DNA from: an uncultured Gammaproteobacteria bacterium
GTDB taxonomy: Bacteria; Pseudomonadota; Gammaproteobacteria; Arenicellales; JAANXG01
DNA length: 64,000 nt
Assembly (NCBI GenBank): GCA_947258495.1
Contig: CAMYIN010000172.1
Coordinates: 61 to 64,060 of the forward strand
Direction: 5' to 3'
Part shown: in pieces, positions 37,602-63,972 of the stretch
Layout: each line of letters starts with the position of its first letter
Numbering within the stretch: position 1 is the first letter of the stretch
Notes under the pieces: generated by a model
Told to the model about the DNA's origin: nothing
Databases searched by the model: none
The model's input: the letters and a program-made list of their open reading frames with translations, nothing else
Program-made: the position numbers and the translations under genes

Positions 37602-37630
37602 AGATGGGGCAGATGTCCCCGGTATTCAAG
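37602..37630 (-). promoter_or_regulatory. sigma32-type heat-shock promoter upstream of clpB
   Basis: On the minus strand: CTTGAA (37625-37630), 15 nt, then CCCCATCT (37602-37609). Close to the consensus. Confidence 0.6.
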
Positions 37631-38330
37631 CGGTTACTGGTACACGATGGACGAAATCGCTGAGTATACGCAGCGCCGCCTCGTCCTTGGAATCCGCTAC
37701 CGTGATCGCCGCGGCGGCTTCGATGCGCGCACGGCTGCGCAGAACGACCGAGAGAATGATTTGTCCCACGCCTTTGATCCCGGAGATGCGCAGGGGAATG
37801 ATGGGGACCCCGGCGAGATGGGCGAGCGCGACCACGCCCCGCTTCAGCGCCACCGGACCTTCGCCGGGTTGGCGAATGCGTCCCTGGGGAAAGACGCCGA
37901 TCACGGCGCCCTTTTCCAGCGCCCGAAGCGCTTCCTGAAACGCCTTTTCCGGTTTTCCACTGCGATCCACCGGGATACAGCCGATGAGTCGAAATAACCA
38001 GTGGAGCGATCTTCGGTGGTACTGCTCGGTGGCGATCATGAATCGAACCGGCCTCGGGCACGACGCAATCATCAACATCGGGTCCAGTCCGGACAAGTGA
38101 TTGGCGGCGAGCAGCGCGCCCCCGGTGGCCGGCAAGTGGATGGTATCCGCTTCCAGCCCGTGGTAGCGGCGGCAGAATATGCGGTTGAGACCGTCGAGAC
38201 GATTGAGCCACTTGCCGCCCCAATCCGCGCCGTTCGCGCGATCCAGGCGGTACGCCACCGAGCGCCAGGCCAAGACCACAAGCAACAGCGCTATCAGGCC
38301 GGCCAGCCAGATGAGGAATTGCTCTGACAC
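37626..38330 (-). CDS. lysophospholipid (1-acyl-sn-glycerol-3-phosphate-type) acyltransferase, PlsC family
   Basis: 234 aa. N-terminal TM, H(X)4D motif in AANHLSGLDP, then VFPQGRI. Confidence 0.75.
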   Translation of the reverse strand: MSEQFLIWLAGLIALLLVVLAWRSVAYRLDRANGADWGGKWLNRLDGLNRIFCRRYHGLEADTIHLPATGGALLAANHLSGLDPMLMIASCPRPVRFMIATEQYHRRSLHWLFRLIGCIPVDRSGKPEKAFQEALRALEKGAVIGVFPQGRIRQPGEGPVALKRGVVALAHLAGVPIIPLRISGIKGVGQIILSVVLRSRARIEAAAAITVADSKDEAALRILSDFVHRVPVTA

Positions 38331-38345
38331 GAAGATCGGCCTGAG

Positions 38346-39896
38346 TCAGTTCTTGTGTATTTCGAACTGGTCGAAAATCGCGGGTAGATCCTTCAAGGAG
38401 ACCTTTCCCAATGGCGTCCTCGGCAGTTCCTCCACCACCGCGTATCGCACGATGTGGTTGTGGCTGGACACGCGGCCGTTGAAGTCCCGTATGACGCGTT
38501 TCGCCTTCGCCTCCTGCTCGGGGGGATCGATCGCCAGCACCGCGGCGGGCCGCAGGTCCACTTCGATGACTCCCGCTTCCTTCAATGTGGAATCGCGTTC
38601 CAACAGCACCTCCAGGTCCTCGGGATACACGTTTTTTCCCGCCTCGGTTACGATCAACCGCTTGCTGCGACCGGTGATCACGATCTTGCCGTCCACCAGA
38701 CGGGCGATATCACCGGTCTTGTACCAGCCGCTATCCATGCACTCGCGGGTCTGCTCTTCGTCTACGTACCCGAGCATCACGTTCGGACCGGAAACCCAGA
38801 GCTCTCCGGCACCGGTCGCGTCGGGATCGTTGATGCGCACGCGCACGCCGGGCAAGGGTTCGCCGACGCTCTCGAGGAGTGGGTCGTTCTGCCTCTGCAC
38901 GCTCACGACCGGTGAACACTCGGTGAGCCCGTAGCCTTGAATCAGCGGCAGGCCGATATCGCGGAAGAACTCGCCTATTTTCGGGTCGAGCCGTGATCCG
39001 CCGCTGAGCCAACACGTTATCTTTCCTCCGAGTTTGTGGCGGATGGGCCAATTCAAGTGTCGTCGCAGGGACAACGGCGTTTTTCGCAGCAACGCAAGAT
39101 ATATACGCAGCCCCGCGCCGCCATCCGAAAATCGCTTCTGCATGTTCAACATGATGTTACGAAACAGGCGCGGCACGGCTATCACCATGGTGATCTTCTC
39201 TTCCACCAGGGCCTCTATGATTTCGTTCGCCGCCAGCACCCGGGGCAACACGATGGTGGCGCCGCAGTGAAGAGGCAGAAGCATGCCTCCGGTCAACTCC
39301 ATGGCGTGCGACAGCGGCAACAGCGACAAGAAGCGGTCACGGGGACCGATGGGAATGTCGATATTGGAGGAGGCCAGCACGTTCGAAATGATGTTACTGT
39401 GGGACAACCGCACCATTTTCGGATTGCCCGTGCTCCCCGAGGTATAGATTCGAACCGCCTCGTCGTTCGCGCGCGGCGAAAAATCGCTCGGATTTTCGGA
39501 ATCCGCGAGCGTGTCCGCGAGTTCGATCGACTCGGTGTTCTTCAGACCCCGGTGTTCGCCCTGGTACAGAATCAATTTGGGCGCCAACGCCTGGGCCTGG
39601 ATACTCAGCTCTTCGTCGCTGTTGCCGGTGTGCAACGGCGCAACTACCGCGCCCAATTTCCAGCAGGCTAGGGCCGTGGCCCCCCACTCGGGGCCGTTGG
39701 GCGAAAGGATGCCGACCCGATCGCCGGCCCGGATCCCGCAGTCGTGCAGCCGCCGGGCCAGATGCCGCGCGTAGGCATCGATCTGGGTATAGGTGTACTG
39801 TTCTCTCCGGCCCTTGCTCTGGCGCCGCACCCAACACAGCTGCTGCGGATAACGCTGCAGGGCTTCGTGCGTCAGGGACCAGAGATTGTCGGCCAT
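38346..39896 (-). CDS. AMP-dependent synthetase/ligase (long-chain acyl-CoA / acyl-ACP synthetase-like)
   Basis: 516 aa. AMP-binding signature IYTSGSTGNPKMV, plus GYGLTE and YKTGD motifs. Confidence 0.85.
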   Translation of the reverse strand: MADNLWSLTHEALQRYPQQLCWVRRQSKGRREQYTYTQIDAYARHLARRLHDCGIRAGDRVGILSPNGPEWGATALACWKLGAVVAPLHTGNSDEELSIQAQALAPKLILYQGEHRGLKNTESIELADTLADSENPSDFSPRANDEAVRIYTSGSTGNPKMVRLSHSNIISNVLASSNIDIPIGPRDRFLSLLPLSHAMELTGGMLLPLHCGATIVLPRVLAANEIIEALVEEKITMVIAVPRLFRNIMLNMQKRFSDGGAGLRIYLALLRKTPLSLRRHLNWPIRHKLGGKITCWLSGGSRLDPKIGEFFRDIGLPLIQGYGLTECSPVVSVQRQNDPLLESVGEPLPGVRVRINDPDATGAGELWVSGPNVMLGYVDEEQTRECMDSGWYKTGDIARLVDGKIVITGRSKRLIVTEAGKNVYPEDLEVLLERDSTLKEAGVIEVDLRPAAVLAIDPPEQEAKAKRVIRDFNGRVSSHNHIVRYAVVEELPRTPLGKVSLKDLPAIFDQFEIHKN

Positions 39897-40024
39897 GCGG
39901 AATTCTCGCGATCTGCTATGCAGTTTGTTTCGATTTCACGGACGGGGCGCAGGATCCGCCGCTGCCGAGTGCGAGCACCTCCACCGACTCGGCGGCGTGC
40001 GCGGGTGTATTCGCACGCGTCCGG

Positions 40025-41143
40025 CTACTGCGGCCGCGCGACGATGAGGGAGAAATAACCATTTTCCGGTTCGTAATGACGTTCGATAACCATGTCGGCC
40101 TCACGGAAAAGCCGTGCCAGCGATTCGACCGTAAATTTCCGGCTGATCTCCGTCAAGATGCTCTCTCTACGATCGAACCCCACCGTGAGATCCAAGGCCG
40201 AGATCGTCACTTGCTGCGACAAGCGCGATACCAGGTGCATCTCGATGCGCGCCCGATGGGGATCGTAAAACGCCCGGTGCTCGAAGGATTCCAGGTCGAA
40301 GGCGGCATCCAGTTCCCGGTTGATGACGCGCAGCACGTTTTTATTGAACTGCGCGGTAACACCTTCTTCGTCGTTGTAGGCGCGGTCCAGAACGGCCGTG
40401 TCTTTGACCCGATCCGCGCCGAGAAGCAGACGATCGTCGTCGTCCATTTGGGCGCGTATCGAGGAGATCAACTCTACGGCGTCATCATGCTCGAAGTTGC
40501 CAATGGTTCCTCCGAGAAAGACAAACAGCTTGTTCCCTTCTCCATTCCGGACGCGTTCGTGATTCAGTCCGTTCTCGTAATCGGCAACCAATACGTCGAC
40601 GGTCAAGGGCGAAAATCGCCTGATCAATCGTTCACCCGCCTCCACCAGGGCTTGTTCCGAAATATCGATCGAGATGTAGCGCAAAGGGGAAACCTCATCA
40701 ATTGCCGCTCGAAGCAATACTTCGGTCTTCTTCGAAGAGCCACTTCCGAGCTCTACGATCACCGCCGGATCGGTCAGCGCTACGACGTCGTTGACGACAT
40801 CCTGCAATAAACCATGTTCGACACGCGTGAGATAGTATTCGGGAGTGTCACATATCTGTTCGAACAACTCCGAGCCACGCTCGTCGTAGAAATACTTCGG
40901 CGGCAGGGTCTTGGGTATGCCCGTCAACCCGTAACGCACGTCTTGAGCAAGATCCGCGTGATCCGTGCCCTGCTGGGTCTTGTGTATGTGAATTCGATCG
41001 TTTAAAACGGCGATACCCTCCTCCGGACCGACGAGGCGCCTCGAGTCTACACGGTGCGCCCGTCGCTCACGTTGTGCGCCCAATACCGTGATATCATTAT
41101 GGGTTTCCGATAAGCCGGGTCCGGTATTATGGAGATGAAGCAT
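40025..41143 (-). CDS. EgtD-like histidine N-alpha-methyltransferase family protein
   Basis: Collinear by eye with mycobacterial EgtD: LPPKYFYDERGSELFEQICDTPEYYLTRVE, VELGSGSSKKT, FLGGTIGNF, AYNDEEGVTAQFNKNVL, FEHRAFYDP. The N-terminus is about 35 aa longer than EgtD, so the start is uncertain. Confidence 0.75.
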   Translation of the reverse strand: MLHLHNTGPGLSETHNDITVLGAQRERRAHRVDSRRLVGPEEGIAVLNDRIHIHKTQQGTDHADLAQDVRYGLTGIPKTLPPKYFYDERGSELFEQICDTPEYYLTRVEHGLLQDVVNDVVALTDPAVIVELGSGSSKKTEVLLRAAIDEVSPLRYISIDISEQALVEAGERLIRRFSPLTVDVLVADYENGLNHERVRNGEGNKLFVFLGGTIGNFEHDDAVELISSIRAQMDDDDRLLLGADRVKDTAVLDRAYNDEEGVTAQFNKNVLRVINRELDAAFDLESFEHRAFYDPHRARIEMHLVSRLSQQVTISALDLTVGFDRRESILTEISRKFTVESLARLFREADMVIERHYEPENGYFSLIVARPQ

Positions 41144-42066: not shown

Positions 42067-42579
42067 TCATTCGCCCAATCGCCGGTCCGTTTTCTCCGGC
42101 AACCGCAGGGGCTTGATGTCGAAAAAATGCAACGGCAGGCCTCCTCCCTGGCTCGGTGTCGTCGCGGGGTGGTCGGGATTGGGATGCACACCCTGCTGTA
42201 TACCCTGACCGGCCCGCTCCATCGCGGTGATCACCATCTCATGAAAGTCCGGGTCGTAGGGCAACTCGTAGGCGCGCGGCTGGGCCTCGTTCTCAGCGAT
42301 CGGTTTGACCCACAGATAGATTGCACCGTCGTCGTTGGTCCCCTTCCGCGGTTCGACGATATCGGCGAACAACATCTTCATGTTTTCCGGCACCGCTTCC
42401 TTCGTCGGCCATCCCAGCAAGCCGACCAGGGCGAAATAACCGCTGGCGACCGACGCCATGGTGGCGAGAATCGCACCGGCTTTGACCTGCCACGGCCATC
42501 GGGACCTGATGTTGAGATTCAACAGCAGCACGGACAATGCCGAAAACAGCGCAATCAGTCCGAGTATCGCTTCGGTCAT
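42067..42579 (-). CDS. hypothetical membrane protein (two N-terminal TM segments plus a soluble domain); third gene of the MotA-like operon
   Basis: 170 aa. Its ATG overlaps the upstream stop (ATGA). I recognise no family. Confidence 0.55.
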   Translation of the reverse strand: MTEAILGLIALFSALSVLLLNLNIRSRWPWQVKAGAILATMASVASGYFALVGLLGWPTKEAVPENMKMLFADIVEPRKGTNDDGAIYLWVKPIAENEAQPRAYELPYDPDFHEMVITAMERAGQGIQQGVHPNPDHPATTPSQGGGLPLHFFDIKPLRLPEKTDRRLGE

Positions 42580-43169
42580 AGGGCGTAGGGCGTCAAGATC
42601 TTGGGCGTGTCGCGGACGCCTTTGATGTCGCGGTCGCTGGTGACGGTGAATCGAACTACCGTCTTTTCCATATCCTGGCGCTCCAGCACCACCTGGTCCA
42701 CGAAAACGAGTTTGAACTCCGGATTGACCCGCTCTACTTTCACGGTGACGGGTACCGACTGGCCCGTGATCGACTGGTAATAGTAAATGTTCACCACGTA
42801 TTCGCCGGTGATCGTTCCCCGCAGGGTGACGATCTCCTGGTTGATCGGATACACGACCTTGCGACCGTCTATTTCGACCGTGTCATTGATCTCGCCTCGA
42901 TCATCCCTATCCAGATGCATCCAGCCTGCATCGCGCTGTAGATAGGAGACAATCTCTCCGTGAGGATCCTCCACCCAGATGTCAACGTCGTCCGGTCGAT
43001 CTTCCGGCCAGGTTGCGGAAATAATGAATTCCGCCTTGGGATCGACGACCCCCGTCTTGCTGATCGGGTTTACGAGCATGATCGCCACCAGGAACAAAAA
43101 GGTGAAGCCCAGTAACGCGTTGAACAGCAGATCGGTGAACGGATCGGTCAGGTAGCGCTGGTTCCGCAT
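42576..43169 (-). CDS. hypothetical single-pass membrane protein; candidate MotB/ExbD-equivalent with an unrecognised beta-rich periplasmic domain
   Basis: 197 aa. N-terminal TM DPFTDLLFNALLGFTFLFLVAIMLV with an Asp at the cytoplasmic end. Its start abuts the MotA-like stop (TAAATG). Confidence 0.55.
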   Translation of the reverse strand: MRNQRYLTDPFTDLLFNALLGFTFLFLVAIMLVNPISKTGVVDPKAEFIISATWPEDRPDDVDIWVEDPHGEIVSYLQRDAGWMHLDRDDRGEINDTVEIDGRKVVYPINQEIVTLRGTITGEYVVNIYYYQSITGQSVPVTVKVERVNPEFKLVFVDQVVLERQDMEKTVVRFTVTSDRDIKGVRDTPKILTPYAL

Positions 43170-43967
43170 TTACCTGCTTCCATTGGCAAGCCGCGGTGTC
43201 ACATGGACTTCGGATACCTCGGTAATGCCTGCAAGCAACTCGTCGGCGCCGCGATCGGCGATGTGGTACTGGATGCCGGCGAGGACGCCGCCGATCAAAC
43301 CGCACAGTGTCGTGAACAACGCCACACGCATGCCGTCGCTCATGCGGGACAACATGGTTTGTATCGTAGATATGTCCAGATCCTCGACCGTCGGCACCGA
43401 CTGCAGCATGAGGATGAATCCGATCACCGTGCCCAGCAGGCCCAGCTTGATCATCAGATCCGCGATCAACCAGCCCAGTTGCTGCGGCGACTTGATGCGT
43501 TTCGATAGCGCCTCCAGCAGCTGCCCCTGATCGTTGGACAACTGTCCGGGATCCGTGGAGTTGCACAAGCGCCGGGTGAGATTCTGAATGTGATACGTCA
43601 TCGGCCCATCGGGCAGAACCGCGGAGTGCCCGAAAATGACCTCCTGGTCTTTCACCCGGAGCTGAGAATCCTGATCGCGGTCCATCAACCGCGATATGGT
43701 GTTCACCTGGTTGATGTAGTGCGACAACCGCAGGATCAACCATCCGGCGTGAAAAGCGGACAGTCCGAAAACGACGACGATGACGGCGGATAAGTTGCTG
43801 GTATCGTTGCGGAACAACACATGGAACAGGCCCTGATGCCAGGCGACGATCAAACCCAACGCAACCGTGGTGACGAACAGCAACCAGCGCAGCAGCAGTT
43901 TATGGGTAACGTACATTTCTGAATTATCCGGTTCTATTGCAACGCGCCGGCGCGAGCGCGTAAGCAC
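43170..43967 (-). CDS. MotA/TolQ/ExbB proton-channel family protein
   Basis: 265 aa with four predicted TM segments. C-terminal signature LGWLIADLMIKLGLLGTVIGFILML...ALFTTLCGLIGGVLAGI. Confidence 0.7.
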   Translation of the reverse strand: MLTRSRRRVAIEPDNSEMYVTHKLLLRWLLFVTTVALGLIVAWHQGLFHVLFRNDTSNLSAVIVVVFGLSAFHAGWLILRLSHYINQVNTISRLMDRDQDSQLRVKDQEVIFGHSAVLPDGPMTYHIQNLTRRLCNSTDPGQLSNDQGQLLEALSKRIKSPQQLGWLIADLMIKLGLLGTVIGFILMLQSVPTVEDLDISTIQTMLSRMSDGMRVALFTTLCGLIGGVLAGIQYHIADRGADELLAGITEVSEVHVTPRLANGSR

Positions 43968-44079
43968 TTATTATAGTAGCCGGTTTGTCCGAAACCGTGT
44001 CCAGGGATCGCCGAATCGGCCGCAACATGGTAACACGCCGGCTTGCGCCGCCCGCAAGGGGGCGGGAATCCTCGAAGTC

Positions 44080-44856
44080 TCAGTGCCCGATCCAGATCAG
44101 CGACGCCATGCGTCCGCATGCGCGGTCGCGCCGGTACGAAAAGAACCGCTGCGGCTGGCTGAAGGTGCAAAGCGATTCATCGCAGTAGCAGCGGACTGCG
44201 CCCGCGGCGTGCAGGCGTTGGCGCACCAACGCGTAGAGATCGGCGCGCCACTTGCCCCGCGCACCGCCCGGGGTGAAACACGACCGCGCTTCCGGGCGCC
44301 CGTCCAGCAACGCGTGTTTCACGGATTCGCCGATCTCGAACGCCCCGGGGCCGATTGCCGGCCCCAACCACGCCAACACACCGGGGCCGGCCGCGTCGAA
44401 AGTGGACAGTGCGCGTTCGACTATGCCGGCGGCGAGCCCGCGCCAGCCCACGTGTACCACGGCCACCCGGGTTCCGGACGCTGCGCACAGGAACAACGGC
44501 AGACAATCCGCCGTCAACACCGCGCAGACGACGCCGGGGCGATCGGTGAAGCTGCCGTCCGCCCCGGTTTGCGGCGGCGCGTTCGCGGCGTCGACGATGC
44601 GGGTGCCGTGCTCCTGACGCAACCACGCCGGTTCGCCGGGGAGCCGACACGCGGCCTTCAAGCGTTGCCGATTTTTCCTCACGAGAACCGCATCGTCGCC
44701 AACGTGGTCGGCCAGATTCAGCGAAGCGTAGGCGCCGTCGCTCACGCCCCCCGTGCGCATCGTCGTGAACGCGCGCACCCGGTCCGGCGCCGGCCATTGT
44801 GCATCGACAAGCCGCAACGACTCGCCGACTCCGGCGGCTGGCGGCGGTTTGGTCAT
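44080..44856 (-). CDS. pgeF: peptidoglycan editing factor PgeF (YfiH / DUF152 laccase-domain protein)
   Basis: 258 aa. TADCLPLFL and HVGWRGLAAGI motifs, in the conserved position downstream of rluD. Confidence 0.88.
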   Translation of the reverse strand: MTKPPPAAGVGESLRLVDAQWPAPDRVRAFTTMRTGGVSDGAYASLNLADHVGDDAVLVRKNRQRLKAACRLPGEPAWLRQEHGTRIVDAANAPPQTGADGSFTDRPGVVCAVLTADCLPLFLCAASGTRVAVVHVGWRGLAAGIVERALSTFDAAGPGVLAWLGPAIGPGAFEIGESVKHALLDGRPEARSCFTPGGARGKWRADLYALVRQRLHAAGAVRCYCDESLCTFSQPQRFFSYRRDRACGRMASLIWIGH

Positions 44857-44919
44857 CGGCCGTGCCCGCCCGGCCTAGCCTTCAGCGGCGATGTCGCCTT
44901 GGGCGGCAGCGTGATTCGG

Positions 44920-45876
44920 TCAGTCGTGCCGTGTTCGATCGTCCGCATCGAGCGCCTCGATCATCTCCATCATGTCGGCCGGCGGCGGTTGTTCCCAACG
45001 TAACGATTCGCCGCTGACGGGGTGGATACACGTGAGCCCGCTCGCATGCAACGCCTGGCGCCGAAATGCCTGCAGCTGTTTCCGCAGACGGGCCCCGGCG
45101 TTCGACGGAACGCGCAGGCGGCCAGCGTACACCGGGTCCCCCAGCAACGGGAAACCGAGATGTTTCATGTGCACCCGGATCTGGTGCGTGCGCCCGGTGT
45201 CCAGCTGCACGCGCAGTAAGGTATGCGCCCTGAATCTGCGCGCGATCCGGTAATGCGTGACCGCGGGCTTGCCGCTGTCGGTCACCGTCATGCGCAAGCG
45301 ATCGTGCCGGTCCCGTCCGATCGGTTCATCGACGGTGCCGCCGGAAATCACGGCCCCGCAGACCAGGGCGAGATAATCTCGTACCAGGCTGCGCTCGGCG
45401 AGCTGTCGGATCAAAGCGGTGCGTGCGGTCTCGCTGCGAGCAACCACCATAAGACCGGACGTGTCCTTATCCAGCCGGTGCACGATCCCGGCGCGGGGCA
45501 GCCGCGCCAGCGACTCGTCGAAGTACAGCAGGGCGTTGAGCAAAGTGCCTTCCAGATTGCCGGCGCCGGGGTGCACGACCAGGCCGGGCGGTTTATTGAC
45601 CACCAGCAGATGCTCGTCCTGGTAGCGGAAATCCAGCGCGATGGGTTGCGGTTGCCAATCCATGGCAGGTCCTTCGGGTACCGCGATTTCCACTTCTTCC
45701 CCGCCGATCACTCGATCCCGCTGTCTCGGTACTTCGTCGTCCAGAAGCACCCTACCCTCTCGAAGCCACTTCTGCAGCGCGGTGCGCGAATATTCCGGAC
45801 AGAGCGCGGCCAGGGTCTGGTCAACGCGCTTGCCGGCGAGATCCCGGGGAACGGTCAACGTCAATTGTCGCAACAC
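44920..45876 (-). CDS. rluD: 23S rRNA pseudouridine(1911/1915/1917) synthase RluD
   Basis: ORF 44920..45969 trimmed to the GTG at 45876 (the TTG at 45885 is also possible, with GGGGGGAAAG upstream). S4 domain, HRLDKDTSGLMVVA. The longer form would overlap the divergent bamD. Confidence 0.88.
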   Translation of the reverse strand: MLRQLTLTVPRDLAGKRVDQTLAALCPEYSRTALQKWLREGRVLLDDEVPRQRDRVIGGEEVEIAVPEGPAMDWQPQPIALDFRYQDEHLLVVNKPPGLVVHPGAGNLEGTLLNALLYFDESLARLPRAGIVHRLDKDTSGLMVVARSETARTALIRQLAERSLVRDYLALVCGAVISGGTVDEPIGRDRHDRLRMTVTDSGKPAVTHYRIARRFRAHTLLRVQLDTGRTHQIRVHMKHLGFPLLGDPVYAGRLRVPSNAGARLRKQLQAFRRQALHASGLTCIHPVSGESLRWEQPPPADMMEMIEALDADDRTRHD

Positions 45877-45954
45877 CTTGGTCAACGGTTCTTTCCCCCC
45901 TCCGCGAATCGCGTTATGCTGCGCCGTTGGTGCTTCAACACTGTGTGCGTACCC

Positions 45955-46791
45955 ATGCGATGGTTTCAATTCTTGATGATCGGTGTCGTCGCGGCCACGG
46001 CTGCGAACGGTTGCGCGCGTCTGAAACCGGAGTCGTCTCGCGATGACTGGACGGTGGAGAAATTCTACAGCGAAGCGAGGGAGTCCTTAAGCAAAAAACG
46101 CTGGGAGCTCGCGCTGGAGTTCTTTCAAGCGCTGGAGGCGCGCTATCCCTACGGTCCGTACACGGAGCAGGCGCAGATAGACACGATCTACGCATATTAT
46201 AAGAAGGAGGAACCGGAATCGGCGGTCGTCGCGGCGGATCGCTTCATACGACTGCATCCCACCCACAATGGAGTGGCGTACGCGTACTACATGAAGGGTC
46301 TGGTGAATTTCAACGAGCATCGCAGTTTCATGGACCGCTGGATCGGCGGCACCGGTGGAACCGACCGCGATCCTTACGCGGCGCGGGAATCGTTTCTCGC
46401 CTTTCGCGAACTGGTGAACCGCTTCCCCGACAGCCGTTACGCGGAGAACGCCCGACAGCGCATGCGACACCTGCTCAATGTGCTGGCGATGAACGACATT
46501 CATGTTGCCGAATATTATTTGCGGCGCGGGGCGTACGTCGCGGTCGTAAACCGCTGCAAGCACGTGATCGAGGAATACCAGCAGACGCCCGCGGTAGAGG
46601 ACGCGCTGGGCCTTATGGCGGTGGCCTATCAACGTATGGGCATGAGCGAACTGGCGCAGGACGCCCTGCGCGTCCTCAAGATCAATTTTCCGAACAGCGA
46701 ATACGTTCCCAGGGTCGCCGGCGGAGAACAGCAGGAACCGCGCGATTCCTGGATCTCCCGCATGTTCAAACGGCGCGGCGACGATTCCTGA
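45955..46791 (+). CDS. bamD: outer membrane protein assembly factor BamD (lipoprotein)
   Basis: Internal ATG of ORF 45223..46791. MRWFQFLMIGVVAATAANGC lipobox, TPR-like repeats, divergent from rluD as in many gammaproteobacteria. Confidence 0.9.
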   Translation: MRWFQFLMIGVVAATAANGCARLKPESSRDDWTVEKFYSEARESLSKKRWELALEFFQALEARYPYGPYTEQAQIDTIYAYYKKEEPESAVVAADRFIRLHPTHNGVAYAYYMKGLVNFNEHRSFMDRWIGGTGGTDRDPYAARESFLAFRELVNRFPDSRYAENARQRMRHLLNVLAMNDIHVAEYYLRRGAYVAVVNRCKHVIEEYQQTPAVEDALGLMAVAYQRMGMSELAQDALRVLKINFPNSEYVPRVAGGEQQEPRDSWISRMFKRRGDDS

Positions 46792-62189: not shown

Positions 62190-62666
62190 TTGACGATGCA
62201 CAAGCGGGACAGAGGGTTGACCATAATTGAGCTGATGATCGTCATCACCCTGGTGGGGGTATTGATGGCCTTAGCCGTTCCAAATTTTCGCGATTTCGTG
62301 CGCCGCAACCAGCTCACGACACAGGCGAACGAGTTCGTCGCGGCCCTCAACCTCGCGCGCGCCGAGGCCATACGCCGCAACCGCAATATATCCGTGATAG
62401 CGACCGACGACAGCGACGCCGCCAACGAATGGGGGCCGGGCTGGAAGGTGGCCGACGGTGTCGAGGACATCCGAGTCGCCGCCAAGCTGCCCGGGTCGCT
62501 GACGCTCGACAGCAGCAACAACGCCAACGCCATCGTGTTCGCGTCCTCCGGGCTGCTACTGGGCGGCGGCGATGTATTTCTGCTCTGCGATCCGGAGAAA
62601 TCCGGCCATCGCATCGAGCTTTCCGCCTCCGGGCAGACGTCGCACAAAAAACAGGATTGCCCATAG
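62190..62666 (+). CDS. fimT: type IV minor pilin, GspH/FimT family
   Basis: 158 aa. Prepilin leader and N-methylation site RG|LTIIELMIVITLVGVLMALAVPNF, plus ...ANEFVAALNLARAEAIRRN. Confidence 0.75.
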   Translation: MTMHKRDRGLTIIELMIVITLVGVLMALAVPNFRDFVRRNQLTTQANEFVAALNLARAEAIRRNRNISVIATDDSDAANEWGPGWKVADGVEDIRVAAKLPGSLTLDSSNNANAIVFASSGLLLGGGDVFLLCDPEKSGHRIELSASGQTSHKKQDCP

Positions 62667-63211
62667 TGATCGTGCAGAGACCAGATTCGAAGATCGAGAG
62701 CGGTTACACGCTGGTCGAGGTGCTGGTGGCCTTTGTCGTGCTCTCCATCGGCCTGTTGGGCCTGGCCACGCTCCAGGGGGTCTCGCTGCAGGGGAGCAAC
62801 AAGTCCTTCGCGCGCTCCATCGCCATGGTCCAGGCCTACGACATGGCGGACCGTATCCGCGCCAACATGGCGGGCGTCACCCAGGGCGCGTACGACAGCC
62901 TGCCCGTAGCCGGCAGCGTGGACTACAGCTGCCTCGCCACCGGCTGTTCGCCGGGGTTCATGGCCGCCATCGACGGCGACGAGTGGAGCCGGGAAATCGC
63001 CGCGCGGTTGCCGAGCGGTGAGGGCGCCGTCACGCGGCTGCCGACGACCGCAACCGTGGCCGCGCCGATCTTTCAAATCGACGTGGGATGGCAGGAAACC
63101 TCGCGCAGCCTTTTGAACACCATGGCCGGCGACGAGGACATCGAGGAATCCTGTGACGACGCCCTCAGCGCCACGACCTTGACCTGCTTCCGATTGGAGT
63201 TCTCGCCATGA
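62666..63211 (+). CDS. pilV: type IV pilus minor pilin PilV
   Basis: GTG at 62666 (62672 is also possible) within ORF 62429..63211. SG|YTLVEVLVAFVVLSIGLLGLATLQ is typical of PilV. Confidence 0.7.
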   Translation: MIVQRPDSKIESGYTLVEVLVAFVVLSIGLLGLATLQGVSLQGSNKSFARSIAMVQAYDMADRIRANMAGVTQGAYDSLPVAGSVDYSCLATGCSPGFMAAIDGDEWSREIAARLPSGEGAVTRLPTTATVAAPIFQIDVGWQETSRSLLNTMAGDEDIEESCDDALSATTLTCFRLEFSP

Positions 63212-63972
63212 AGGGCCGACACCCGCAGCCGTCGACGATGACCGGATTCACCATTGCCGAGTTCATGGTGGCGATCGCCATCGGCATGTTTCTGATCACC
63301 GGACTGATCGGCATGTATATCGCCGGCAAGAGCAGCTACAACACCAACGAAGTGCTCTCCCGCACCCAGGAAAACGCGCGCTTCGCCACCGATCTGCTGA
63401 CGCGCTTCCTGCGTCTTGCCGATTACCGCACCGACAACGAGGACGACCACCGCCAGGTGCAGGCAACCATCACCGATTCGGTGCGCGGTTGTATCGCCGG
63501 CACCAACTGCGGTGTCGGCTTTCCGGGCGCCGCCGACTTGCCGTCCGAACTGGTCGGCAGCTCACACGCGATCCATATCAAATACACGTCGCCCTACGAC
63601 GGCCTGCGGGACTGTACGGGTGCCACCCTCGGTGAGGGCGCCGACGTGGTCGCCACCTTCGCCGTGGGGCGCGCAAACGCCGGCGATCCCTGGACCTTGT
63701 ATTGCAACGGCCAGCCGCTGGTGCAGGGGGTCGCGGACCTGCAGATCCAGTACGGCATCCGCGCCGCCGGCGGCAACATGCGCTACACCGACCACACGGA
63801 CACCGGCGATCAGCCGACCATTGCCGAATGGCCGAGCGTGATTGCGCTGCGGCTGATCCTGACCGTGGAATCCGGCGACGAGACCGTGACCAAGGTGGCC
63901 AAGGACGAGATCGCGAACCGCGCAGACCGCGAGTATCTGGCCACCGTTCAATTACGGAACCGACTGCTATGA
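63208..63972 (+). CDS. pilW: type IV pilus assembly protein PilW
   Basis: 254 aa. TG|FTIAEFMVAIAIGMFLITGLIGMY...TQENARFA, with ATGA coupling to pilV. Confidence 0.7.
   Translation: MKGRHPQPSTMTGFTIAEFMVAIAIGMFLITGLIGMYIAGKSSYNTNEVLSRTQENARFATDLLTRFLRLADYRTDNEDDHRQVQATITDSVRGCIAGTNCGVGFPGAADLPSELVGSSHAIHIKYTSPYDGLRDCTGATLGEGADVVATFAVGRANAGDPWTLYCNGQPLVQGVADLQIQYGIRAAGGNMRYTDHTDTGDQPTIAEWPSVIALRLILTVESGDETVTKVAKDEIANRADREYLATVQLRNRLL

What the first reader, a model, noticed from the sequence alone, without database searches (positions are those of the whole stretch)
42067..43967. Three-gene operon: MotA/ExbB-type channel, Asp-bearing single-TM partner with an unknown periplasmic domain, and a third membrane protein
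Gene 1 (265 aa) has the four-TM layout and C-terminal signature of MotA/TolQ/ExbB ion-channel subunits. Gene 2 (197 aa) starts on the base after gene 1's stop (TAAATG). It has a single N-terminal TM with an Asp at its cytoplasmic end (DPFTDLLFNALLGF...), in the position of the essential Asp of MotB, TolR and ExbD. Its periplasmic part (ATWPEDRPDDVDIWVEDPHGEIVSYLQRDAGWMHLDRDDRG...YYYQS...) resembles neither an OmpA-like peptidoglycan-binding domain nor an ExbD/TolR domain as far as I can tell. Gene 3 (170 aa, two TM segments plus a soluble domain) overlaps gene 2 by ATGA. There is no TonB, TolA, Pal, flagellar or Zor-type partner nearby. This reads as a 5:2-type ion-driven motor coupled to an uncharacterised effector, so it may be an undescribed PMF-powered envelope system.
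Basis: partly seen in the sequence, partly recalled or inferred. Interest (0 to 1): 0.7.

Follow-up and report, generated by a model that had tools for sequence, protein, structure and literature searches.

The report
Uncharacterised three-gene proton-motor cassette
Three overlapping genes encode a previously unannotated relative of the proton-driven Tol/Ton/flagellar-stator motors. The same cassette is conserved in hundreds of bacterial species and, unexpectedly, in many phages, where the third protein is sometimes fused to a cell-wall-cutting lysozyme.

Summary
Three tightly coupled ORFs lie on the minus strand (43967-42067), with the TAAATG and ATGA junctions as described. Gene 1 is a genuine MotA/ExbB/TolQ protein (PF01618, 41 bits) that keeps both channel threonines. 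Gene 2 has an ExbD/TolR/MotB-type helix whose Asp13 is conserved in 225 of 227 homologues and aligns with ExbD D25. Its periplasmic part is an all-beta sandwich with no significant family or PDB match. Gene 3 (TM hairpin plus a small periplasmic domain) also matches nothing known.

The triad is the only conserved unit in 80 of 80 bacterial loci (more than 500 species carry gene 2), and there is no TonB, TolA, Pal or Zor partner. I also found the same triad, in minimal form, in 29 Rhizobium/Sinorhizobium phage genome records and about 150 viral contigs. In 13 of those contigs gene 3 is fused to an intact GH24 lysozyme.

Best reading: a self-contained ion-driven inner-membrane machine of the 5:2 class with a new axle head and a new third subunit. 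Its output is probably directed at the cell wall. The 5:2 stoichiometry, PMF dependence and the cell-wall link in bacteria are inferred, not shown. I found no published description. It is a new variant of a known kind, and interest is high.

The parts
43170..43967 (-). Gene 1 (g1), the MotA/ExbB/TolQ-type channel subunit. It is 265 aa from GTG 43967, but the probable true start is ATG 43916 (248 aa). It has four TM segments and a cytoplasmic loop of about 85 aa.
   Evidence: ORF. PF01618 at 41.2 bits against a cut-off of 22.9. Four hydrophobic segments. Relatives begin at MYVTH. The family profile aligns to E. coli ExbB and TolQ.
43233..43562 (-). The PF01618 core of g1 (residues 136-245). It contains 'LGLLGTVIGF' (Thr codon 43430-43428) and 'ALFTTLCGL' (Thr codons 43313-43308).
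   Evidence: These stretches align with ExbB/TolQ 'GLFGTVWG' and 'AL(L/I)ATAIGL'. The Thr of GTV and the second Thr of TT are conserved in nearly all of 136 homologues, including the phage copies.
42576..43169 (-). Gene 2 (g2), the axle-type subunit (197 aa). Its N-terminus is cytoplasmic. It has one TM helix followed by an acidic periplasmic beta-sandwich.
   Evidence: ORF and TAAATG junction. 3930 homologues and 2025 representative clusters at 50% identity. AF2 pLDDT 78.5.
43071..43142 (-). The g2 transmembrane ('transpore') helix, residues 10-33, with Asp13 (codon 43133-43131).
   Evidence: AF2 helix 10-33. D13 aligns with ExbD D25, TolR D23 and MotB D32. It is Asp in 225 of 227 homologues, cellular and viral.
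42612..43028 (-). The g2 periplasmic beta-sandwich, residues 48-186 (11 strands). It carries an invariant cluster: W54, D61, D63, D89, D90, G92 and E112.
   Evidence: AF2 secondary structure. Invariance. The only similarities are sub-threshold: PPC, DUF2135 and the subtilisin jelly-roll. No PDB fold match at E < 0.05. BFVD matches are to uncharacterised phage proteins.
42067..42579 (-). Gene 3 (g3), the third membrane subunit (170 aa). It has a TM hairpin (residues 2-55, 42576-42415), a periplasmic domain with strand order b1-b2-b3-alpha-b4-b5, and a conserved C-terminal '..F..(L)P..LPxK' motif.
   Evidence: ORF and ATGA overlap. AF2 pLDDT 76. Three K/R residues in the inter-helix loop. Conservation. 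The g3 profile finds the third gene of the phage and distant cassettes. The C-terminus is periplasmic, because phage orthologues carry a fused GH24 lysozyme.

Best explanation
g1, g2 and g3 encode the three subunits of a self-contained, ion-driven inner-membrane machine of the MotAB / ExbBD / TolQR ('5:2') class. It belongs to a family that the profile libraries I searched do not annotate.

g1 forms the outer ring, presumably a pentamer. It keeps the two threonine positions that line the proton path in ExbB and TolQ.

g2, presumably a dimer, sits inside that ring with its single helix. Its invariant Asp13 is the proton-binding residue, as in ExbD, TolR and MotB. Only about 13 residues after the helix, g2 carries a novel acidic beta-sandwich head in place of an ExbD/TolR or OmpA-like domain. 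The invariant Asp/Glu cluster in that head most likely binds a divalent cation.

g3 occupies the gene position of TolA/TonB but is unrelated to them. A TM hairpin would dock it on the ring, and its small domain lies in the periplasm.

Proton flow would turn or switch the ring relative to the axle. That movement is passed on in the periplasm through the g2 head and g3.

The most likely target is the peptidoglycan layer: positioning, gating or activating murein cleavage. The reason is that one phage clade has welded a catalytically intact lysozyme to the end of g3.

Shown: gene structure, family membership of g1, register and conservation of the Asp and Thr residues, synteny, presence in phages, and the lysozyme fusion. 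Inferred: stoichiometry, rotation, PMF dependence, cation binding, and the cell-wall output in bacteria.
For: - g1 is PF01618 above the curated threshold.
- The family profiles align g1 'GTV.G' and 'AL.TT' with ExbB T148/T181 and TolQ T145/T178. They align g2 D13 with ExbD D25, TolR D23 and MotB D32.
- These residues are kept in nearly all of 136 (g1) and 225 of 227 (g2) homologues, including minimal phage versions.
- The gene order A-B-third gene with translational coupling mirrors exbB-exbD and tolQ-tolR-tolA.
- The triad is the only conserved unit in 80 genome loci with varying housekeeping flanks. It is also conserved in distant clusters, in Azospirillum brasilense Sp7, in 29 Rhizobium/Sinorhizobium phage genome records and in all 80 + 72 IMG/VR loci examined.
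- A subunits as short as 113-156 aa show that the cytoplasmic domain is dispensable, so the output must be on the periplasmic or membrane side.
- g3 is fused to PF00959 Phage_lysozyme (E 3e-49), with the E-8aa-D-5aa-T motif intact, in 13 distinct viral contigs. One further contig has a separate lysozyme ORF about 640 nt downstream of g3.
- A published precedent exists for TolQ-like rings whose axle helix carries a non-TolR domain (PMC12204202).
Against: - No complex prediction or experiment was possible, so stoichiometry and motor action rest on homology.
- The lysozyme fusion is confined to one phage clade (55-97% identity), so it may reflect a single fusion event. No murein hydrolase is linked to the triad in bacterial loci.
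- In most phages the cassette lies among replication and early genes, not lysis genes.
- Both periplasmic domains have short linkers. In the bacterial form neither obviously reaches the peptidoglycan.
- The g2 head and the g3 domain have no significant structural neighbour, so their binding partners are unknown.
Confidence: 0.55

Rival explanations
1. It is a divergent Ton or Tol paralogue. g1 and g2 would be an ExbBD/TolQR-type energiser that powers a TonB or TolA protein encoded elsewhere, with g3 as an accessory.
For: The gene order and the helix motif ('PF.D' in both g2 and ExbD) match. g1's best E. coli matches are ExbB and TolQ. Two of 74 g2 homologues touch PF02472 at E 0.005.
Against: The g2 periplasmic domain is an all-beta sandwich, with no ExbD family hit and no PDB match. 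g3 has two TM helices, none with a His in the window copy, so there is no SHLS-type motif. It also has no TonB_C or TolA hit. The cassette is carried complete by lytic phages. No TonB-dependent receptor, Pal or TolB is linked in any of 80 loci.
Confidence: 0.1
2. It is an anti-phage or superinfection-exclusion device. A Zorya-like membrane sentinel would sense or block incoming phage at the envelope, and phages would carry it to exclude competitors.
For: g1 gives weak ZorA hits in PADLOC (E 2e-5). The cassette sits among early and replication genes in T4-like phages; from general knowledge, T4 keeps its exclusion genes imm and sp in such regions. Defence systems are often shared between cells and phages.
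Against: The ZorA hits cover only the MotA core. g1 lacks the long ZorA tail, and no ZorB, ZorC, ZorD or other effector is present. The bacterial loci have housekeeping flanks, not defence islands. g2 is unusually conserved: 53-94% identity across all 80 loci kept, which carry several order-level labels. The cellular copies form one clade. A fused active lysozyme fits exclusion poorly.
Confidence: 0.12
3. It is a PMF-sensing gate for lysis rather than a motor. The channel complex would hold a membrane-tethered muralytic activity inactive while the membrane is energised and release it on depolarisation. This is analogous to pinholin/SAR-endolysin control in phages and autolysin control in cells.
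For: The g3-GH24 fusions are membrane-anchored lysozymes encoded next to a proton channel. Known SAR endolysins are controlled by membrane potential (general knowledge).
Against: Most phage and all bacterial copies lack a linked hydrolase. The cassette is not in recognisable lysis modules. The full conservation of the Asp/Thr set is typical of working 5:2 motors, though it does not exclude a sensor role.
Confidence: 0.13
4. It is an artefact: chance ORFs in GC-rich DNA, or a decayed remnant.
For: The window is about 58-60% GC, and many long shadow ORFs overlap the region.
Against: There are thousands of homologues with conserved length, synteny and invariant residues.
Confidence: 0.01

Closest known systems
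ExbB-ExbD(-TonB) and TolQ-TolR-TolA
   Same: The ring subunit is in the same Pfam family (PF01618) with the same two Thr positions. The axle helix carries Asp in the same register ('PF.D'). Gene order and translational coupling are the same, and there is a third membrane protein with a periplasmic domain.
   Different: The axle head is an all-beta acidic sandwich, not the ExbD/TolR fold. The third protein has a TM hairpin, no SHLS/His motif, no long spacer and no TonB/TolA C-terminal domain. There are no outer-membrane partners. The cassette also occurs in phages.
TolQ-like rings paired with 'transpore-helix'-vWA proteins (Williams-Jones et al. 2025, PMC12204202)
   Same: A TolQ-like gene with no tolR/exbD. 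The partner has a TolR-like helix with the conserved Asp, fused to an unrelated periplasmic domain. The proposed action is to rotate directly inside the pentamer.
   Different: Here the domain is a PPC-like beta-sandwich, not vWA. There is a single axle gene rather than heterologous pairs. A conserved third gene (g3) is present, and so are phage copies.
MotAB / PomAB flagellar stator
   Same: A four-TM A subunit, and a B subunit with a single helix and a critical Asp.
   Different: g1 has no large torque-generating cytoplasmic domain; the phage A subunits are only 113-156 aa. g2 has no Pfam OmpA-family hit; whether it has a plug helix was not examined. No flagellar genes are nearby.
Zorya ZorAB
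   Same: A MotA/ExbB-type core and a non-motility role. PADLOC gives weak ZorA hits.
   Different: There is no ZorA tail, no ZorB peptidoglycan-binding domain and no ZorC/D/E effectors. The genomic context is housekeeping.
SAR endolysins with pinholins
   Same: This applies only to the phage g3-GH24 fusions: a lysozyme tethered to the inner membrane, encoded beside a small membrane channel protein.
   Different: The anchor is a conserved two-helix hairpin plus an extra domain, not an N-terminal SAR helix. The channel partner is a MotA/ExbB-type protein, not a holin.

Membership tests
MotA/ExbB/TolQ (PF01618), for g1 | Profile score above the curated threshold | tested here: met
   41.2 bits against a cut-off of 22.9, residues 136-245.
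MotA/ExbB/TolQ (PF01618), for g1 | Conserved Thr residues in the last two TM helices that face the axle Asp | tested here: met
   They align with ExbB T148/T181 and TolQ T145/T178. Conserved in 134 of 136 and 135 of 136 homologues.
5:2 motors (A5B2 complexes) | A pentamer of A subunits around a dimer of B subunits | not testable with these tools
ExbD/TolR (PF02472), for g2 | N-in single TM helix with an essential Asp | tested here: met
   AF2 helix 10-33. D13 is in register with ExbD D25 and TolR D23. Asp in 225 of 227 homologues.
ExbD/TolR (PF02472), for g2 | A periplasmic domain of the ExbD/TolR family | tested here: not met
   No PF02472 hit for g2. Only 2 of 74 homologues hit at E 0.005; the matched region was not printed. 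The model is all-beta with 11 strands. No PDB sequence or fold match.
MotB/ZorB type, for g2 | An OmpA-like peptidoglycan-binding domain | tested here: not met
   No OmpA-family hit in Pfam, NCBIfam or PADLOC.
TonB/TolA, for g3 | A single N-terminal TM helix with the SHLS/His motif | tested here: not met
   Two TM helices. The window copy has no His in either helix. This is judged by eye from the alignment.
TonB/TolA, for g3 | A TonB_C or TolA C-terminal domain | tested here: not met
   No Pfam or NCBIfam hit. No PDB fold match.
Zorya | ZorA with a long cytoplasmic tail, plus ZorB and ZorC/D or ZorE | tested here: not met
   g1 is 248-265 aa. PADLOC hits cover only the MotA core, and g2 and g3 have none. 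The neighbours are housekeeping genes.
TolQ-like + TPH-vWA systems (PMC12204202) | A vWA domain on the axle protein | tested here: not met
   No vWA hit. The fold is a beta-sandwich.
PPC / pre-peptidase C-terminal domain (PF04151), for the g2 head | Profile score above threshold | tested here: inconclusive
   Only sub-threshold hits: 6 of 74 homologues, best E 0.008. The profile against PDB touches the subtilisin jelly-roll 3afg at E 0.3.
GH24 phage lysozyme (PF00959) | Presence of the domain | tested here: not met
   Absent from the window's g3. Present only in phage orthologues.

The most novel reading that the evidence does not exclude
The cassette is a new family of minimal proton-driven rotary motors, shared by bacteria and lytic phages, that does mechanical work on the cell wall. 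The ring carries g3 (and, in some phages, a lysozyme) around a fixed axle, or it gates that enzyme by PMF. That would make it the first ion-driven machine dedicated to murein cleavage or remodelling, and the first 5:2 motor known to be encoded by viruses.
Probability: 0.2. Interest if true: 0.9.

Novelty: new variant of a known kind. Interest (0 to 1): 0.72.

Why it matters
The known 5:2 motors each opened a field: flagellar stators, Ton, Tol, gliding/T9SS and Zorya. This would add another family.

- It is widespread: gene 2 occurs in more than 500 species and forms about 2000 clusters at 50% identity.
- Two of its three proteins match no model in Pfam, NCBIfam or PADLOC, and none in PHROGs at E ≤ 0.01.
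- It is compact enough for structural work (A subunits down to 113 aa).
- It is present in culturable systems: Azospirillum brasilense Sp7 and Rhizobium phages.

The phage copies and the lysozyme fusion give a concrete, testable lead on what the motor acts on. They also raise the question of why lytic phages bring their own proton motor.

Tried and rejected
- Pfam, NCBIfam, PADLOC and PHROGs on g2 and g3 gave nothing above noise.
- The PDB sequence search with g2 alone found nothing. With a 74-sequence profile it gave only E ≥ 0.1.
- Foldseek against PDB found no match at E < 0.05 for g2 and none at E < 0.4 for g3. Foldseek against BFVD matched only uncharacterised phage proteins.
- The diverse alignment A2 was too variable for a viral scan, so smaller alignments were used.
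- A profile search with 26 diverse g3 sequences returned only 29 proteins and no new fusion.
- The apparent g1-g2 fusion P0189 is probably an assembly frameshift, because its g2 is split into two ORFs. It is not used as evidence.
- A weak ExbB tblastn hit near 63.1 kb falls in what look, by eye, like type IV pilin-type ORFs and is spurious.
- The promoter scan found no site, and the terminator-like sites are weak and lie inside coding sequence.
- Rfam and repeat scans of the locus were empty or trivial.
- Seven literature searches and five papers read in part (of which PMC12204202, PMC12505986 and PMC12905483 deal with 5:2 motors) gave no description of this family or of phage-encoded MotA/ExbB cassettes. 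The library lacks most subscription journals, so prior description cannot be excluded.
Full report
**Observation**

The window contains three ORFs on the minus strand:
- g1: 43967..43170, 265 aa from GTG.
- g2: 43169..42576, 197 aa.
- g3: 42579..42067, 170 aa.

The g1 stop is followed directly by the g2 ATG (TAAATG), and g2 and g3 overlap by ATGA. Relatives begin g1 at 'MYVTH', so ATG 43916 (248 aa) is the more likely start. A TATAAT hexamer at 43975-43970 lies just upstream of the GTG. That fits a transcript starting downstream of the GTG, but the promoter scan found no full site. Rfam and repeat scans of the locus were empty or trivial.

**What each gene is**

*g1.* It reaches PF01618 MotA_ExbB at 41.2 bits against a cut-off of 22.9. 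It has four hydrophobic segments with a loop of about 85 residues between the second and third. A profile of 62 orthologues aligns to E. coli ExbB and TolQ, which I fetched from the K-12 record. In that alignment 'LGLLGTVIGF' lies on 'GLFGTVWG' and 'ALFTTLCGL' lies on 'AL(L/I)ATAIGL'. The aligned residues are the threonines ExbB T148/T181 and TolQ T145/T178; from general knowledge of those motors, they face the axle aspartate.

*g2.* It has no hit in Pfam, NCBIfam, PADLOC or PHROGs and no PDB sequence match. AlphaFold2 with 27 homologues (pLDDT 78.5) gives a helix at residues 10-33, a short linker, and an 11-strand beta domain at 48-186. The family profile aligns the helix with ExbD 19-47, MotB 27-49 and TolR 17-39. 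This puts D13 on ExbD D25, MotB D32 and TolR D23. Foldseek finds no PDB neighbour at E < 0.05. The only similarities are sub-threshold:
- the PPC domain in 6 of 74 homologues, DUF2135 in 2 of 74 and ExbD in 2 of 74;
- the jelly-roll of a subtilisin (3afg, E 0.3) and a phage virion protein (E 0.1) with the profile.

*g3.* It has no family hit. AlphaFold2 (pLDDT 76) gives two TM helices (2-25 and 30-55). They are followed by strands and one helix in the order b1-b2-b3-alpha-b4-b5. There is no significant PDB neighbour; the best is E 0.47. The loop between the helices holds three K/R residues and no acidic residue. This predicts N-out/C-out topology.

**Conservation and context**

- g2 has 3930 homologues in the 90%-clustered collection, nearly all about 200 aa and unnamed. 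It has 2025 representative clusters at 50% identity with E ≤ 0.001.
The 80 kept are mostly Gammaproteobacteria: Arenicellales, Chromatiales, Thiotrichales, Acidiferrobacteraceae, Legionellales, Thioglobus and symbionts. The closest locus (94%) is an Arenicellales MAG.
- In all 80 loci, g1 and g3 homologues flank g2 in the same order wherever the contig allows. The window's neighbours (rluD, pgeF/yfiH, nadC) are shared only with the eight closest relatives.
- Clustering all flanking ORFs shows that the triad is the only widely conserved set. The next most frequent cluster occurs in 19 loci, and the remaining clusters I read by eye are lineage-local housekeeping genes.
- g2 is the most conserved of the three: 53-94% identity, against 30-92% for g1 and 27-76% for g3.
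- The window's neighbours are an acyltransferase, an AMP-ligase, an EgtD-type methyltransferase and NadC on one side. On the other side are PgeF, RluD, BamD, NadE, a FemAB-like protein and Aat.
- E. coli Tol, Exb, Mot and Pal proteins find nothing in the window at E < 0.03.
- Distant g2 clusters keep the same three-gene layout. So does Azospirillum brasilense Sp7, on plasmid p1.

**Phages**

A tblastn search of GenBank phages found g2 relatives (33-41% identity over 78-95% of the protein in the listed records) in 29 Rhizobium/Sinorhizobium phage records. In the three records I examined:
- the preceding gene is a 113-148-aa protein that hits PF01618; one of the three clears the gathering cut-off, at 27.3 bits;
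- the following gene matches the g3 profile at E 3e-9 to 5e-7;
- the cassette lies among replication and early/middle genes, including gyrase, the late sigma factor and recombination nucleases.

Two scans of IMG/VR found 147 and 144 confirmed loci. In all 80 + 72 loci examined, g1, g2 and g3 stand in the same order. Their neighbours include terminase, primase, RNase H, ribonucleotide reductase and ClpP, so these are real phages.

In 13 distinct viral contigs g3 is about 300 aa, and its last 125-140 residues are PF00959 Phage_lysozyme (E 3e-49). The sequence 'EFEGRRLVAYQDSVGVWT' shows the E-8aa-D-5aa-T catalytic pattern of GH24 enzymes (my knowledge of the family). These contigs form one clade at 55-97% identity. 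The fusion independently confirms that the g3 C-terminus is periplasmic. It is the only functional link found.

**Residue conservation across cells and phages**

| Residue(s) | Conservation |
|---|---|
| g2 D13 | Asp in 225 of 227 homologues |
| g2 W54, D61, D63, D89, G92, E112 | invariant in all 227 |
| g2 D90 | Asp in 225 of 227 |
| g1 Thr of 'GTV' | 134 of 136 |
| g1 second Thr of 'TT' | 135 of 136 |

D9 is specific to the gammaproteobacterial clade. One cluster has Val at position 13 but keeps an Asp four residues earlier. In a neighbour-joining tree the 70 cellular copies plus the window form one clade inside the viral and unknown-source diversity. Those loci were chosen as best matches, so the monophyly is partly built in.

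**Interpretation**

The ion-path signature of the MotAB/ExbBD/TolQR class is complete and under strong constraint, even in the smallest phage versions. The module therefore most likely conducts protons and converts that flow into movement, as its relatives do.

It is not a member of the Ton, Tol, flagellar or Zorya systems, for four reasons:
- The axle's periplasmic domain is a different fold.
- The third protein is not TonB/TolA-like.
- The ring lacks the ZorA tail and the large MotA cytoplasmic domain.
- None of the partner genes is linked.

The closest published idea is the TolQ-like ring paired with 'transpore helix'-vWA proteins (PMC12204202). The general picture of diverse non-flagellar 'GIT' complexes (PMC12505986) also fits. 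Neither describes this head domain, g3 or phage copies.

The output is unknown. I favour the cell wall because of the lysozyme fusion, but this rests on one phage clade. Alternatives are a PMF-gated lysis switch, an exclusion or defence device, or a Ton/Tol-like energiser for an unlinked partner. Each is scored under the rival explanations.

**Literature**

Seven full-text searches and targeted reading found no description of the family. The library omits most subscription journals, so this is absence of evidence only.

**Verdict**

The system is a new variant of a known kind of machine. It has an unexpected and testable phage connection.

Noticed in passing
L085 4537-6026; L086 4543-6044; L087 4613-5989 (Rhizobium phages RHph_I1_9, RL2RES, RHph_N3_19): Cultured lytic Rhizobium phages carry the whole cassette in miniature. 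The A subunit is 113-148 aa, the axle protein 194-201 aa and the third protein 144-154 aa. All are annotated 'hypothetical', and they lie between gyrase/topoisomerase genes and the late sigma factor.
   Followed up: yes
L144, L145, L159, L161, L164, L166, L167, L182-L187 (IMG/VR contigs), g3 orthologues of 287-305 aa: The third protein is fused at its C-terminus to a GH24 phage lysozyme whose catalytic motif looks intact. L120 (the same contig as L226) has a separate lysozyme ORF about 640 nt downstream of g3.
   Followed up: yes
L171 5142-7085 (Azospirillum brasilense Sp7 plasmid p1, NZ_CP012915.1): A genetically tractable bacterium has the triad (275, 203 and 173 aa). BLAST reported two matching places per Azospirillum record; the second was not examined.
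   Followed up: partly
P0123 / L172 and L084: One cluster of g2 homologues has Val at the position of the otherwise invariant Asp13 but keeps an Asp four residues earlier ('FDPFxV'). The protonatable residue may have moved by one helical turn.
   Followed up: no
L084 736-2176: An apparent g1-g2 fusion protein (P0189, 411 aa) is followed by a 72-aa ORF that is the end of g2. This is most likely a frameshift in a long-read assembly, not a real fusion.
   Followed up: partly
window 43970-43975 (minus strand): A perfect TATAAT hexamer sits two bases upstream of the GTG at 43967. A transcript starting after it would exclude the GTG, which favours ATG 43916 as the g1 start. No -35 partner was found.
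   Followed up: partly
window 44080-46791: pgeF/yfiH (Cu-oxidase_4 family), rluD and bamD lie directly upstream of the triad. The rluD-pgeF-triad-nadC arrangement is shared only with the eight closest relatives.
   Followed up: yes
window 62190-63972: There is a run of ORFs on the + strand, two of them with hydrophobic N-termini that look like type IV prepilin leaders (minor-pilin-like, judged by eye only). A weak ExbB tblastn hit falls here and is spurious.
   Followed up: partly
window 37626-41143: An acyltransferase, an AMP-binding ligase and an EgtD-type histidine methyltransferase (PF10017, 343 bits) lie together on the minus strand. They could be a small-molecule (betaine or lipid) modification cluster.
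   Followed up: no
L088 and 21 other IMG/VR loci, about 1.2 kb downstream of the g2 start: GDP-mannose 4,6-dehydratase directly follows the triad in 22 of 80 viral loci. Other recurrent neighbours are ClpP and, by eye, ribosomal protein S21 and HSP20.
   Followed up: partly
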